From the NCBI RefSeq assembly GCF_003334335.1, contig NZ_QOWQ01000014.1: a stretch of DNA of 64,000 bases; one strand, given 5' to 3'. The DNA comes from Escherichia coli. Lineage in GTDB: Bacteria; Pseudomonadota; Gammaproteobacteria; Enterobacterales; Enterobacteriaceae. Position 1 is the stretch's first letter. Every line of letters begins with the position of its first letter. The translations under genes were made by a program, and so were the position numbers. Shown here piece after piece: positions 2,196 to 42,024 of the stretch. The notes below the pieces were generated by a model that was not told where the DNA came from, did no database searches, and worked only from the letters and a program-made list of their open reading frames with translations.

Positions 2196-3551
2196 TTACA
2201 GGATGCGGCTAATTAATCGGTCGATGCGGATACGGCGCAAACGGCGGATGAGTTTACGAACCTTCACCGGATAATCGGCAATACTTTGCAGATCGCGATA
2301 GTGCTTAACGATGGTGGTATGCTCGCGGATCAGCTCCAGTTCTTTCTCTCGCTGTGGCGCCAGCTCAAGTTGCGGATCGTGGATCAAAATGGCGTTTTCC
2401 AGATCCAGACGCCAGGCGCGCGGGTTCAGGTTATTACCGGTGATCAACATCCACTTATCATCAACCCACATCCCTTTCAGGTGATAGGTGTTGTCGTCAT
2501 CTTTCCATAACCGAACCACTAGCTGGTCAGTATTGACGTAATACTGCAAACGGCTCAGGAAACGACGCAGATTGATCTCATAGAGATAAGGCAATGCGCC
2601 AATTATCTTGAAAGGTTCATCTTCCGGAATGTAGAAGTCATTCGCGGTTTTATCACCAACAATAATTTCGACCTTTTTCCCTTCGCGCAGCAACTGGATA
2701 ATATTGCGCACAAGGATTGCTGGCAGGTTGAAGTATGGCGTACAGATGGTTAGTTTCTGCTCGGCACAAGGCATAAGATGGAAAATGGTCTTGTTCAACA
2801 GACTCGATTTCCCCAGCCCCACTAGCGGCGTTACAGAAAGCTGATCGTTGTCGGCATCGCCCTGGAAATGATAAGCGGCATCACGCAGCTCCTGGCGGAA
2901 CAGACGAATATCGTTCTTGATTTCCGGGCTTTTTGGCCGATTAACATCATCCAGACGATTAACGCCGCGGCCATTCATAATATTCTGTGTAACCCATTCA
3001 AACATAATGTCTGACATCTTACGGTTACGGATCAGATGATAACGGTCGTAGCGATATTTATCGTGCTGATGCAGGTAAACATCGTTCAGGCTGGCACCGC
3101 TATAAAGTACGCTATCGTCGATGATAAAGCCTTTAAAGTGCAGAACACCAAGGGCTTCACGAGTATTGATTGGAACGCCATAAACCGGAACATCTACGCC
3201 CGGATTTTCCTGCGCCATGCGGCAGTACCAGTCAGCGTTAGTGTTAGATGCCGCAGCGCCAATGCGTCCACGTTGTGCACGATGCCAGTCGACCAGCACC
3301 CGCACATCCAGTTCCGGACGCTGCCTTTTAGCCTCATACAACGCGTTCAGAATGCCTTTGCCACCGTCATCCTGTTCGAGATACAGGGCGACAATGCAAA
3401 TGCGCTGCTTCGCGCTGGCTATTTTTTCCAGCAGCGTCTCCCGGAAGTCGGCGGGAGCGTAAAAGAAATCGACATCATCAACTGATTGAGAAATCTTGGG
3501 TAGTTGGGCAAGGTGTTGTTGATGTTTATTACGCTTAAATTTTGACAACAT
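2196..3551 (-). CDS. pssA: CDP-diacylglycerol-serine O-phosphatidyltransferase (phosphatidylserine synthase)
   Basis: ORF 2196..3554 minus; translation MLSKFKRNKHQQHLAQLPKISQSVDDVDFFY... recognised as PssA, 451 aa from ATG at 3551. Confidence 0.93.
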   Translation of the reverse strand: MLSKFKRNKHQQHLAQLPKISQSVDDVDFFYAPADFRETLLEKIASAKQRICIVALYLEQDDGGKGILNALYEAKRQRPELDVRVLVDWHRAQRGRIGAAASNTNADWYCRMAQENPGVDVPVYGVPINTREALGVLHFKGFIIDDSVLYSGASLNDVYLHQHDKYRYDRYHLIRNRKMSDIMFEWVTQNIMNGRGVNRLDDVNRPKSPEIKNDIRLFRQELRDAAYHFQGDADNDQLSVTPLVGLGKSSLLNKTIFHLMPCAEQKLTICTPYFNLPAILVRNIIQLLREGKKVEIIVGDKTANDFYIPEDEPFKIIGALPYLYEINLRRFLSRLQYYVNTDQLVVRLWKDDDNTYHLKGMWVDDKWMLITGNNLNPRAWRLDLENAILIHDPQLELAPQREKELELIREHTTIVKHYRDLQSIADYPVKVRKLIRRLRRIRIDRLISRIL

Positions 3552-9524: not shown

Positions 9525-9707
9525 CTCGCTCTCCTGCGAATCTTCAATCCGCCTAGCTTAACTGCTTCTTTCTACAGAACAAAATCATGCTCATTTTTTA
9601 GACTTAAACGAGTGCAAAAAAATGTAAATTGGTAAAATTTCACACCCGCATAAGTTGATGTAAAACAATAAAATCCATTTGCGACCATACTTGATGTGTG
9701 GTTTTTA

Positions 9708-9721
9708 TTGATTTAAATCAA
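9708..9721 (+). promoter_or_regulatory. FNR/CRP-class box TTGAT-N4-ATCAA upstream of grcA
   Basis: Perfect TTGATTTAAATCAA palindrome about 108-121 bp upstream of the grcA ATG; grcA (yfiD) is a known FNR-activated gene. Confidence 0.7.
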
Positions 9722-25775: not shown

Positions 25776-26080
25776 AGTGTACTTATCTTTTACAAGCAAC
25801 TTGCAATCTTTAGCATAAAAACTCGAGCCTTTACGAAGAAAGCAATATTGATGGAAAGATTAACGTGACCGCCAATTCGTAAGTACATTAAAATTGGCTT
25901 CGTTATTGAAGATTTTGCTGTGCTTTACACCATGCCACAGAATTCCCCCATTGAAACGAGTGGTGTCGTCAAAGCTCTGGTGTGGAGTGCAGCATGCACC
26001 CTCAATAACTCGCACGTTCAGTTTTGGGGAGATGTAAGGGCTAATCTGAATGGCTGCATTCCTTGTTTAAGGAAAAACGA

Positions 26081-40443: not shown

Positions 40444-40469
40444 ATGGTCTTCCTTTTTTTGCATCTTAA

Positions 40470-40492
40470 TTGATGTATCTCAAATGCATCTT
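40470..40492 (-). promoter_or_regulatory. NsrR-type operator in the hmp promoter
   Basis: Minus strand reads AAGATGCATTTGAGATACATCAA, an imperfect inverted repeat resembling NsrR sites, 27-50 bp upstream of the hmp ATG. Confidence 0.5.
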
Positions 40493-40770
40493 ATAAAAAA
40501 TAGCCCTGCAATGTAAATGGTTCTTTGGTGTTTTTCAGAAAGAATGTGATGAAGTGAAAAATTTGCATCACAAACCTGAAAAGAAATCCGTTTCCGGTTG
40601 CAAGCTCTTTATTCTCCAAAGCCTTGCGTAGCCTGAAGGTAATCGTTTGCGTAAATTCCTTTGTCAAGACCTGTTATCGCACAATGATTCGGTTATACTG
40701 TTCGCCGTTGTCCAACAGGACCGCCTATAAAGGCCAAAAATTTTATTGTTAGCTGAGTCAGGAGATGCGG

Positions 40771-42024
40771 ATGTTAAAGCGTGAAATGAACATTGCCGAT
40801 TATGATGCCGAACTGTGGCAGGCTATGGAGCAGGAAAAAGTACGTCAGGAAGAGCACATCGAACTGATCGCCTCCGAAAACTACACCAGCCCGCGCGTAA
40901 TGCAGGCGCAGGGTTCTCAGCTGACCAACAAATATGCTGAAGGTTATCCGGGCAAACGCTACTACGGCGGTTGCGAGTATGTTGATATCGTTGAACAACT
41001 GGCGATCGATCGTGCGAAAGAACTGTTCGGCGCTGACTACGCTAACGTCCAGCCGCACTCCGGCTCCCAGGCTAACTTTGCGGTCTACACCGCGCTGCTG
41101 GAACCAGGTGATACCGTTCTGGGTATGAACCTGGCGCATGGCGGTCACCTGACTCACGGTTCTCCGGTTAACTTCTCCGGTAAACTGTACAACATCGTTC
41201 CTTACGGTATCGATGCTACCGGTCATATCGACTACGCCGATCTGGAAAAACAAGCCAAAGAACACAAGCCGAAAATGATTATCGGTGGTTTCTCTGCATA
41301 TTCCGGCGTGGTGGACTGGGCGAAAATGCGTGAAATCGCTGACAGCATCGGTGCTTACCTGTTCGTTGATATGGCGCACGTTGCGGGCCTGGTTGCTGCT
41401 GGCGTCTACCCGAACCCGGTTCCTCATGCTCACGTTGTTACTACCACCACTCACAAAACCCTGGCGGGTCCGCGCGGCGGCCTGATCCTGGCGAAAGGTG
41501 GTAGCGAAGAGCTGTACAAAAAACTGAACTCTGCCGTTTTCCCTGGTGGTCAGGGCGGTCCGTTGATGCACGTAATCGCCGGTAAAGCGGTTGCTCTGAA
41601 AGAAGCGATGGAGCCTGAGTTCAAAACTTACCAGCAGCAGGTCGCTAAAAACGCTAAAGCGATGGTAGAAGTGTTCCTCGAGCGCGGCTACAAAGTGGTT
41701 TCCGGCGGCACTGATAACCACCTGTTCCTGGTTGATCTGGTTGATAAAAACCTGACCGGTAAAGAAGCAGACGCCGCTCTGGGCCGTGCTAACATCACCG
41801 TCAACAAAAACAGCGTACCGAACGATCCGAAGAGCCCGTTTGTGACCTCCGGTATTCGTGTAGGTACTCCGGCGATTACCCGTCGCGGCTTTAAAGAAGC
41901 CGAAGCGAAAGAACTGGCTGGCTGGATGTGTGACGTGCTGGACAGCATCAATGATGAAGCCGTTATCGAGCGCATCAAAGGTAAAGTTCTCGACATCTGC
42001 GCACGTTACCCGGTTTACGCATAA
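40771..42024 (+). CDS. glyA: serine hydroxymethyltransferase
   Basis: ORF 40765..42024; ATG at 40771 ([41 protein letters not shown]...) gives 417 aa. Confidence 0.97.

What the first reader, a model, noticed from the sequence alone, without database searches (positions are those of the whole stretch)
40461..40492. Imperfect palindrome with duplicated GCATCTT half-sites at the hmp promoter (candidate NsrR operator)
On the hmp strand the sequence reads AAGATGCATTTGAGATACATCAATTAAGATGC, 20-50 bp upstream of the hmp ATG in the hmp-glyA divergent region. It resembles the inverted-repeat NsrR operator expected for an NO-detoxifying flavohemoglobin gene, and the extra GCATCTT half-site suggests a second partial site.
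Basis: partly seen in the sequence, partly recalled or inferred. Interest (0 to 1): 0.25.

Follow-up and report, generated by a model that had tools for sequence, protein, structure and literature searches.

The report
Known NsrR/FNR operator at hmp promoter
This is the already characterised DNA site where the nitric-oxide-sensing repressor NsrR, and overlapping it the oxygen sensor FNR, sit on the promoter of E. coli's NO-detoxifying flavohaemoglobin gene hmp; the extra nearby repeat is a weak, Escherichia-only copy with no evidence of function.

Summary
The sequence is exactly as described. The window is E. coli K-12 (100% identical to MG1655), and the 32-mer lies 18-49 nt upstream of the hmpA start codon in the hmpA-glyA divergent region.

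Bases 40492-40470 (- strand, AAGATGCATTT-G-AGATACATCAA) are the published 11-1-11 NsrR operator of hmp. It is listed with a ChIP-seq peak in PMC5320621. With a weight matrix built from 25 other published NsrR sites it is the best hit in the 64 kb (18.6 bits). An equivalent site is present at the same position in all 78 distinct Enterobacteriaceae hmp promoters examined. It overlaps the -10 hexamer TAAGAT and the inferred transcription start, so the mechanism is promoter occlusion relieved by NO.

The two GCATCTT copies are a direct repeat, not the two arms of the palindrome. The real second arm is degenerate in E. coli (3.1 bits) because it doubles as a 9/10 FNR box (TTGAGATACATCAA).

The third copy (AAGATGCAAAA, 40467-40457) is already listed in the literature as a 'possible' site. 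It is statistically weak (7.7 bits, P about 0.07), has no partner arm, and is not conserved outside Escherichia.

Verdict: already known, low interest.

The parts
40512..40517 (-). -35 hexamer TTTACA of the hmpA sigma-70 promoter
   Evidence: Promoter scan: TTTACA-18 nt-TAAGAT, 9 of 12 matches. Invariant in all 78 distinct Enterobacteriaceae hmp upstream regions.
40488..40493 (-). -10 hexamer TAAGAT; 5 of its 6 bases lie inside the left NsrR arm
   Evidence: 99% column identity across 78 species.
40470..40492 (-). NsrR operator, 11-1-11 inverted repeat AAGATGCATTT-G-AGATACATCAA (one NsrR dimer)
   Evidence: Best hit in the 64 kb with an hmp-excluded PWM, 18.6 bits. Identical to the hmp site in PMC5320621 Table 4, which has a ChIP-seq peak. 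Present at the same position in 78 of 78 species, 18.6-31.1 bits.
40482..40492 (-). Left (promoter-proximal) NsrR half-site AAGATGCATTT, a perfect consensus
   Evidence: 15.7 bits, rank 1 of 127,980 11-mers. 96% conserved. PatSer score 10.92 in PMC5320621 Table 2.
40470..40480 (-). Right NsrR half-site AGATACATCAA (reverse complement TTGATGTATCT), degenerate in Escherichia
   Evidence: Only 3.1 bits, against a median of 11.8 bits in other genera. The E. coli-specific bases G40479 and A40470 are shared by 4% and 12% of species.
40470..40483 (-). FNR-type box TTGAG-ATAC-ATCAA (9/10 to TTGAT-N4-ATCAA), nested in the centre and right arm of the NsrR operator
   Evidence: 7 matches with at most 1 mismatch in the window, against 2.2 expected. 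Matches of 9/10 or better occur only in Escherichia and some Citrobacter. A predicted FNR site at hmp, and earlier evidence for FNR binding there, are cited in PMC3688515.
40481..40481 (-). Inferred transcription start (G), which is also the dyad centre of the NsrR operator
   Evidence: Inference: it lies 7 nt downstream of the -10 hexamer. It agrees with my recollection that the FNR site is centred at +5.5 (Cruz-Ramos 2002, not readable here). No TSS data were examined.
40457..40467 (-). Third, directly repeated half-site-like copy AAGATGCAAAA in the 5'UTR (+15..+25); probably non-functional or at most auxiliary
   Evidence: 7.7 bits, rank 101. P about 0.07 in shuffles, and no partner arm. 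46% conserved, with the key G40462 shared by 5% of species. Listed as a 'possible NsrR site', hmp(19), PatSer score 5.00, in PMC5320621 Table 2.
40449..40455 (-). Shine-Dalgarno region AAGGAAG of hmpA
   Evidence: Sequence. Columns 40455-40449 are 81-99% conserved.
39253..40443 (-). hmpA coding sequence (NO-inducible flavohaemoprotein), the regulated gene
   Evidence: NF009805 equivalog at 629 bits. RefSeq annotation.
40771..42024 (+). glyA (serine hydroxymethyltransferase), the divergent neighbour

Best explanation
Bases 40492-40470 (- strand) are the NsrR operator of the E. coli hmpA promoter.

Mechanism. A dimer of the iron-sulfur repressor NsrR binds the 11-1-11 inverted repeat AAGATGCATTT-G-AGATACATCAA. 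This repeat covers the -10 hexamer TAAGAT and the transcription start, so RNA polymerase is excluded. Nitric oxide nitrosylates the cluster, NsrR leaves, and hmpA is transcribed.

FNR overlap. Nested in the same 23 bp is an FNR-type box (TTGAG-N4-ATCAA), centred about +5.5. Holo-FNR can repress through it anaerobically. Because the two sites share 14 bp, NsrR and FNR should bind in a mutually exclusive way.

Evolution of the site. In the Escherichia lineage the right NsrR arm has drifted from the ancestral AAATACATCAT towards the FNR consensus. This leaves E. coli with one perfect and one poor NsrR arm.

Third copy. The AAGATGC 25 bp downstream lies in the 5'UTR. It is most likely a lineage-specific, non-essential sequence rather than a second operator.

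Shown here: motif match, position relative to the promoter hexamers, conservation, and identity with published sites. From the literature: NsrR occupancy, NO sensitivity, and repression. Inferred: the exact transcription start, mutual exclusion of NsrR and FNR, and the neutrality of the third copy.
For: Locus identity. The region is 100% identical to MG1655 glnB-hmpA-glyA, and the gene identities are confirmed.

Motif match. A PWM built from 25 published NsrR sites other than hmp (PMC5320621 Table 4) ranks the 23-mer first in the 64 kb at 18.6 bits, and ranks its left arm first among all 11-mers at 15.7 bits.

Promoter geometry. The scan finds TTTACA-18-TAAGAT, with the -10 hexamer overlapping the left arm.

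Conservation. In 78 distinct Enterobacteriaceae hmp upstream regions every one has a 23-mer site of 18.6-31.1 bits, 17-38 nt (mostly 25-27 nt) from the ATG. Column identity is 100% for the -35 hexamer, 99% for the -10 hexamer, 96% for the left arm and 76% for the right arm.

Literature. [quoted passage not shown] NsrR ChIP at hmpA is abolished by an NO donor (PMC3887101). NsrR shifts the orthologous Salmonella 23-mer in EMSA, and NO weakens the shift (PMC10783083). The site was predicted, and its conservation noted, in PMC1274295. One NsrR dimer spans a 23-bp operator in the ScNsrR-hmpA1 crystal structure (PMC9338935).

FNR. The box matches the consensus at 9/10. PMC3688515 reports a predicted FNR site at hmp and cites earlier evidence for FNR binding there. 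PMC1274295 notes that the FNR site is conserved only in close relatives, which reproduces.
Against: The E. coli operator has the lowest PWM score of the 78 species (18.6 bits against a median of 26.7), because its right arm scores only 3.1 bits. Most of the specificity therefore rests on one half-site.

FNR ChIP-seq found no peak at hmp in vivo; it is classed as a 'silent' predicted site (PMC3688515). The FNR half of the model is therefore less secure in vivo than the NsrR half.

The transcription start is inferred, not measured here.

The primary E. coli papers (Bodenmiller and Spiro 2006, Partridge 2009, Cruz-Ramos 2002, Poole 1996) could not be read. Their content is cited second-hand or from memory.
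Confidence: 0.93

Rival explanations
1. The third copy (AAGATGCAAAA, 40467-40457) is a functional auxiliary NsrR half-site. An additional NsrR subunit or dimer contacts it and stabilises repression at a promoter whose right arm has been sacrificed to FNR.
For: It is an exact 9-nt direct repeat of the consensus arm, 25 bp away, and two of the four AAGATGCA 8-mers in the 64 kb sit here. It is listed as a possible NsrR site in PMC5320621 Table 2. Single 11-bp motifs are reported to work as NsrR sites (Partridge 2009, as cited). Half-site-like 11-mers of at least 7.7 bits downstream of the operator occur in 12 of 24 species with an FNR-type right arm, against 6 of 54 without one (Fisher P = 0.0004, not corrected for phylogeny). 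In the Escherichia and Citrobacter sequences read the motif sits at the same 2-nt offset after the operator.
Against: The score is only 7.7 bits, rank 101 in the window. Equal or better matches arise in about 7% of shuffles of the 26-nt segment. The partner arm scores -9.9 bits and a full dyad scores -1.8 bits. Mean conservation is 46%, and G40462 is shared by 5% of species. The Citrobacter freundii group has AAGTCTCAGAT (3.3 bits) at this position, which has lost the critical T5 (the role of T5 is from PMC10783083). The association test amounts to essentially one clade. A spacing of 25 bp puts the copy about 0.4 helical turn out of phase with the left arm.
Confidence: 0.1
2. The third copy and the A-run matter at the RNA level: as a pairing site for the sRNA SdsN, which represses hmpA, or as a leader structure or translation element.
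For: The copy lies in the transcribed leader at +15..+25 (inferred TSS). SdsN137 is reported to repress HmpA synthesis (PMC8139620; PMC9262595). A-rich leaders upstream of the SD can enhance translation (general knowledge).
Against: Predicted local duplexes between the sdiA-adjacent sRNA candidate and the hmpA leader fall at the AUG and early CDS (+31..+75). None fall on +15..+25, and none beat shuffled leaders. The leader has no significant structure (z = +0.64). The segment is poorly conserved, and the A-run length is itself polymorphic within E. coli.
Confidence: 0.04
3. The palindrome is essentially an FNR site, or a chance symmetric AT-rich sequence, and NsrR control of hmp acts elsewhere.
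For: The FNR box matches at 9/10. As a bare palindrome the element is unremarkable: 7 of 11 arm matches, with 591 comparable repeats in the window.
Against: The near-invariant part across 78 species is the NsrR left arm, not the FNR box. The box is absent (6-7 of 10) in most genera, which still keep a strong NsrR dyad. NsrR ChIP and EMSA data apply to this very sequence or its ortholog. No other NsrR-like site above 3.9 bits lies in the promoter.
Confidence: 0.02

Closest known systems
The published E. coli hmp (hmpA) NsrR binding site itself (Rodionov 2005; Bodenmiller and Spiro 2006; Partridge 2009; Mehta 2015 Table 4: TTGATGTATCTCAAATGCATCTT)
   Same: Identical sequence, gene and organism. 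The + strand of 40470-40492 is the listed 23-mer, letter for letter. The two 11-mers listed for hmp at distances 44 and 19 from the start codon correspond to the left arm and the third copy.
   Different: Nothing. This is the same element.
E. coli ytfE NsrR operator AAGATGCATTTAAAATGCATCTT
   Same: Same 11-1-11 architecture and an identical left arm, AAGATGCATTT. It is also an NO-derepressed promoter bound by NsrR in ChIP-seq.
   Different: The ytfE site is a perfect palindrome (PatSer ln P -25.1), while the hmp site is asymmetric (ln P -18.2). The hmp right arm is degenerate and doubles as an FNR box.
Salmonella Typhimurium hmp operator AAGATGCATTTGATATACATCAT (EMSA and model in PMC10783083)
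   Same: An orthologous position with the same left arm and the same TTGA-type centre (FNR-like, 9/10).
   Different: The Salmonella and Citrobacter right arm scores higher (about 10 bits, against 3.1 in E. coli). They have no AAGATGC third copy; Salmonella arizonae has TATTTTCACAT there.
Streptomyces coelicolor NsrR bound to the 23-bp hmpA1 operator (crystal structure, PMC9338935)
   Same: One Rrf2-family [4Fe-4S] NsrR dimer on a 23-bp dyad upstream of a flavohaemoglobin gene. It provides the physical model for one dimer per 11-1-11 site.
   Different: A different consensus sequence and a distant organism. No FNR overlap is described.
Predicted tandem NsrR sites at the Bacillus subtilis hmp promoter (PMC1274295)
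   Same: A precedent for more than one NsrR element at an hmp promoter, overlapping the mapped promoter.
   Different: Those are two full candidate sites. Here the extra element is a lone, weak half-site with no partner arm.

Membership tests
NsrR (Rrf2-family) operator, enterobacterial type | An 11-1-11 inverted repeat matching AANATGCATTT-N-AAATGCATNTT | tested here: met
   An hmp-excluded PWM from 25 published sites gives 18.6 bits, the top of 127,956 positions in the window. The left arm scores 15.7 bits (rank 1) and the right arm only 3.1 bits.
NsrR (Rrf2-family) operator, enterobacterial type | Positioned to occlude the core promoter of an NO-stress gene | tested here: met
   The operator overlaps the -10 hexamer TAAGAT and the inferred +1 of hmpA.
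NsrR (Rrf2-family) operator, enterobacterial type | Conserved in orthologous promoters of species that have NsrR | tested here: met
   78 of 78 distinct Enterobacteriaceae hmp upstream regions carry a site of 18.6-31.1 bits, 17-38 nt (mostly 25-27 nt) from the ATG. The left arm is 96% conserved.
NsrR (Rrf2-family) operator, enterobacterial type | Occupied by NsrR in vivo or in vitro, with binding lost on NO exposure | not testable with these tools
   Literature only: a ChIP-seq peak in CFT073, NO-sensitive ChIP in EHEC, and EMSA on the Salmonella ortholog.
NsrR (Rrf2-family) operator, enterobacterial type | The target gene is derepressed in an nsrR mutant or by NO | not testable with these tools
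   Literature only: hmp is described as strongly repressed by NsrR (PMC2884951; PMC6950321; PMC8879370). The primary paper was not readable.
FNR binding site | Match to TTGAT-N4-ATCAA | tested here: met
   TTGAGATACATCAA matches at 9/10. It is one of 7 matches with at most 1 mismatch in the window, against 2.2 expected.
FNR binding site | Bound by FNR in vivo | not testable with these tools
   The literature is mixed. PMC3688515 finds the predicted site but no ChIP-seq peak (a 'silent' site), and cites earlier evidence for FNR binding.
FNR binding site | Conserved across orthologous promoters | tested here: not met
   Matches of 9/10 or better occur in 10 of 78 species (Escherichia and some Citrobacter). 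Most genera have 6-7 of 10. This agrees with PMC1274295. The box is a lineage-specific overlay.
Stand-alone NsrR half-site (single 11-bp motif, Partridge 2009): the third copy, 40467-40457 | A significant match to the 11-bp motif | tested here: inconclusive
   7.7 bits, rank 101 of 127,980. P about 0.07 in shuffles of the 26-nt segment. PatSer score 5.00 in the literature.
Stand-alone NsrR half-site (single 11-bp motif, Partridge 2009): the third copy, 40467-40457 | Evolutionary conservation of the motif positions | tested here: not met
   Mean identity is 46%, and G40462 is shared by 5% of species. The exact motif is present only in Escherichia (3 of the 4 Escherichia sequences that differ from each other).
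Stand-alone NsrR half-site (single 11-bp motif, Partridge 2009): the third copy, 40467-40457 | Contributes to NsrR binding or repression | not testable with these tools
   I found no experiment addressing this copy. The ChIP-seq resolution cannot separate it from the main site 25 bp away.

The most novel reading that the evidence does not exclude
In the Escherichia/Citrobacter lineage the ancestral, strong NsrR palindrome at hmp was remodelled so that its right arm became an FNR box. This gave E. coli the weakest hmp operator of the 78 species examined. A lineage-specific third half-site, 25 bp downstream of the consensus arm, then arose as partial compensation. It would recruit extra NsrR contacts and so tune how leaky hmp repression is when NsrR is scarce.
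Probability: 0.1. Interest if true: 0.35.

Novelty: already known. Interest (0 to 1): 0.08.

Why it matters
It matters little as a discovery. The hmp NsrR operator is a textbook element of the enterobacterial nitrosative-stress response, and both the 23-mer and the extra 11-mer are already tabulated in the literature.

The check is still useful in two ways. It shows the first-stage reader can pick out a real operator from raw sequence. It also clarifies the anatomy: one perfect NsrR arm fused to the -10 hexamer, a degenerate arm that is really an FNR box, and a non-conserved direct repeat.

The one mildly interesting by-product is comparative. E. coli's operator scores lowest among 78 Enterobacteriaceae, apparently because of the FNR overlay. 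This fits reports that low-affinity NsrR targets partly escape repression (PMC6950321).

Tried and rejected
1. A second complete NsrR dyad using the third copy as its left arm. Rejected: the 23-mer scores -1.8 bits and the partner arm -9.9 bits.

2. A second promoter using the repeated TAAGAT as a -10 hexamer. Rejected: the promoter scan finds only one - strand promoter-like site, the one with the upstream TAAGAT, and the bases at the -35 position for the second copy (AGATGC) match TTGACA at 0 of 6.

3. The third copy as the pairing site for the sRNA SdsN. I located the sRNA candidate next to sdiA in MG1655 (there is no Rfam family). Whole-length duplex folding was uninformative. Short-window duplexes fall on the AUG and early CDS, not on +15..+25, and do not beat shuffles.

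4. A leader RNA structure involving the copy. Rejected: z = +0.64.

5. Slippage between the two 9-nt repeats as the source of the natural duplication in strain MS14384. Rejected: the duplicated unit is 29 bp, not 25, and its junction does not fall in the repeats.

6. The primary papers could not be read: Cruz-Ramos 2002, Bodenmiller and Spiro 2006, Poole 1996, Filenko 2007 and Hao 2016 are not held, and Partridge 2009 did not turn up in a search.

7. The repeat finder did not report the palindrome at seed 6, which shows that the symmetry alone is weak.

Full report
**What is there.** The window around the finding is 100% identical to E. coli K-12 MG1655, and all 5,426 complete E. coli genomes hold the region. 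hmpA lies on the - strand. Its true ATG is at 40443-40441, giving a 396-aa product that matches the NO-inducible flavohaemoprotein equivalog at 629 bits and agrees with the RefSeq annotation. glyA diverges from it on the + strand, starting at 40771. The mechanical ORF list starts hmp at an in-frame ATG at 40464, inside the element. That is not the real start.

**Is it more than chance?** As a bare palindrome, not by much. The two 11-nt arms match at 7 of 11 positions (P about 0.01 per position), the window holds 591 equally good 11-1-11 repeats, and the repeat finder reports no inverted repeat. The direct repeat is clearer. It is a 9-nt exact repeat, TGCATCTTA on the + strand, at 40460-40468 and 40485-40493, spaced 25 bp apart. 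AAGATGCA occurs only four times in the 64 kb.

The decisive test is the motif match. I built a weight matrix from the 25 distinct NsrR 11-1-11 sites other than hmp in Table 4 of Mehta et al. 2015 (PMC5320621). With it, the 23-mer at 40470-40492 is the best hit in the whole window on either strand (18.6 bits; the next is 14.6 bits). Its left arm, AAGATGCATTT, is the best 11-mer of 127,980 (15.7 bits). The right arm alone scores only 3.1 bits, and the third copy AAGATGCAAAA scores 7.7 bits (rank 101).

**Anatomy relative to the promoter.** The only - strand sigma-70-like promoter in the intergenic region is TTTACA (40517-40512), an 18-nt spacer, then TAAGAT (40493-40488). Five of the six -10 bases belong to the left NsrR arm. 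A start 7 nt downstream of the hexamer would be G40481, which is also the dyad centre of the operator. On that reading the operator spans about -11 to +12. This start is inferred. It agrees with my recollection that the FNR site at hmp is centred at +5.5, but I could not read that paper.

Inside the operator, 40483-40470 reads TTGAG-ATAC-ATCAA, a 9/10 match to the FNR consensus TTGAT-N4-ATCAA. There are 7 such matches in the window, against 2.2 expected. The two GCATCTT copies are in direct orientation, so they are not the two arms of the palindrome. The order of half-sites on the hmp strand is forward (left arm), reverse (right arm, which is also the FNR box), then forward (third copy).

**Comparative footprint.** I fetched 80 hmp loci from different Enterobacteriaceae species, at 81-99% protein identity, and aligned the 140 nt upstream of the ATG. 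That gave 78 distinct sequences.
- Every one carries an NsrR-type 23-mer of 18.6-31.1 bits, 17-38 nt (mostly 25-27 nt) from the ATG.
- Column identity to the E. coli base is 100% for the -35 hexamer, 99% for the -10 hexamer, 96% for the left arm, 76% for the right arm, 46% for the third copy and 89% for the SD region.
- E. coli has the lowest operator score of all 78 (median 26.7 bits). Most genera have AAATACATCAT or AAATACATCTT as the right arm (11.8-14.8 bits), whereas Escherichia has GAGATACATCAA. G40479 is shared by 4% of species and A40470 by 12%.
- Those same changes create the FNR box. Matches of 9/10 or better occur only in Escherichia and some Citrobacter (10 of 78 species). This reproduces the remark in Rodionov et al. 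2005 that the FNR site, unlike the NsrR site, is conserved only in close relatives (PMC1274295).

**The third copy.** AAGATGCAAAA is present in E. coli, E. whittamii and one other Escherichia. A further Escherichia has TAGATGCAAAA, and other genera have unrelated or only loosely similar sequence, for example AAGTCTCAGAT, AAGTAACAT or AAGATTCACAT.
- The key G40462 is shared by 5% of species.
- An 11-mer at least this good arises in about 7% of shuffles of the 26-nt segment.
- Its would-be partner arm scores -9.9 bits, and a full second dyad scores -1.8 bits.
- One hint points the other way. Downstream half-site-like 11-mers of at least 7.7 bits occur in 12 of 24 species with an FNR-type right arm, against 6 of 54 without one (Fisher P = 0.0004). 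In the Escherichia and Citrobacter sequences I read in the alignment they sit at the same offset after the operator. But the 24 species are essentially one clade, so this is not independent evidence.
- I looked for other roles for this segment and found none. There is no second promoter, no leader RNA structure (z = +0.64), and no predicted pairing with the sRNA SdsN, a reported repressor of HmpA synthesis. The best SdsN duplexes fall on the AUG and early CDS and do not beat shuffles.
- Within E. coli the operator and the third copy were identical in the strains I aligned. The variant aligned from the 95-99% identity band (1,788 genomes, about a third) has A8 instead of A7 in the run that follows the copy. 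One blood isolate carries a 29-bp tandem duplication of the FNR box plus third-copy segment.

**What the literature already says.**
- Rodionov et al. 2005 predicted the NsrR site at hmp and its conservation in enterobacteria, and recorded a personal communication from Spiro that YjeB/NsrR represses hmp, ytfE and ygbA.
- Mehta et al. [quoted passage not shown] They list TTGATGTATCTCAAATGCATCTT as the hmp 11-1-11 site (ln P -18.2). In Table 2 they list both AAGATGCATTT (distance 44, score 10.92) and AAGATGCAAAA (distance 19, score 5.00) as possible sites. Those distances match the centres of the left arm and the third copy in this window. The 'extra half-site' has therefore been noted before.
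- NsrR ChIP at hmpA in EHEC is lost with an NO donor.
- Salmonella NsrR shifts the orthologous 23-mer in EMSA, and NO weakens the shift.
- One NsrR dimer spans a 23-bp hmpA1 operator in the Streptomyces crystal structure.
- For FNR, Myers et al. 2013 find a predicted site at hmp and cite earlier binding evidence, but see no ChIP-seq peak.
- The Poole 2020 review notes that low-affinity NsrR targets may partly escape repression because NsrR is poorly translated. That fits the low score of the E. coli operator.

**Mechanism.** The best-supported model (confidence about 0.93) is classic promoter occlusion. Holo-NsrR binds 40492-40470 as a dimer. It is anchored mainly by the consensus left arm, which is fused to the -10 hexamer, and it blocks RNA polymerase. 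NO destroys the cluster-dependent DNA binding, and hmpA is transcribed. FNR can bind the nested box under anaerobiosis. Because the FNR box lies entirely within the NsrR footprint, binding of the two should be mutually exclusive (inference). The third copy is most likely neutral or at most auxiliary (about 0.1).

**Verdict.** The element is already known, so interest is low (0.08). The most novel reading not excluded is a compensatory third half-site linked to the FNR remodelling of the right arm (probability about 0.1; moderate interest if true).

Noticed in passing
window 9655-9668 and 9708-9721 (+ strand), upstream of grcA (ATG 9829): Two FNR-type boxes sit upstream of grcA/yfiD with centres 53 bp apart: TTGATGTAAAACAA (1 mismatch) and a perfect TTGATTTAAATCAA. 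This looks like the known tandem FNR arrangement of the yfiD promoter (from memory; not checked in the literature here).
   Followed up: no
window 25780-25802 (acpS-shoB intergenic) and 27603-27625 (yfhH-pgpC intergenic): The second-best NsrR-like 23-mer in the window (14.6 bits) lies in the acpS-shoB spacer. A weaker one (9.5 bits) lies upstream of pgpC/yfhB, a gene reported as an NsrR ChIP target in both K-12 and CFT073 with no motif listed (PMC5320621 Table 2).
   Followed up: partly
L083 (E. coli MS14384, NZ_LR130562.1), equivalent to window 40484-40456: A human blood isolate carries a 29-bp tandem duplication, TTTGAGATACATCAATTAAGATGCAAAAA, in the hmp leader. It gives two FNR-type boxes and three AAGATGCA copies, and lengthens the 5'UTR by 29 nt. 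The effect on hmp regulation is unknown.
   Followed up: partly
window 40454-40460 (A-run between the third copy and the SD): About a third of complete E. coli genomes (1,788 of 5,419) differ from K-12 somewhere in the 90-nt promoter query. In the one such variant I aligned the difference is an A8 run instead of A7. That changes the spacing from operator to SD by 1 nt and leaves the operator and third copy intact.
   Followed up: partly
window 40554-40571: A block reading GTGATGCAAATTTTTCAC on the hmp strand, about 40 nt upstream of the -35 hexamer, is nearly invariant across Enterobacteriaceae. It is probably the hmp-proximal MetR site of the glyA-hmp intergenic region (Membrillo-Hernandez 1998, cited in PMC2884951). 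I did not test it.
   Followed up: no
window 40464 (- strand ATG inside the third copy): An in-frame ATG seven codons upstream of the real start makes the mechanical ORF 403 aa instead of 396. It has no SD, and the segment is not conserved across species, so it is unlikely to be used.
   Followed up: partly
L065 (uncultured Buttiauxella MAG), hmp upstream region: This promoter has a local duplication of the left NsrR arm together with the -10 region (TTATAAGATGCATTAAAAGATGCATATTAAATGCATCAT). It shows that small duplications of this half-site arise independently in other lineages.
   Followed up: no
L084 about 2808-2990 (- strand), MG1655 tcyN-sdiA spacer: The sRNA candidate next to sdiA (presumed SdsN) has a clear intrinsic terminator and a promoter-like site about 180 nt upstream. 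It has no Rfam family at E <= 0.01.
   Followed up: partly
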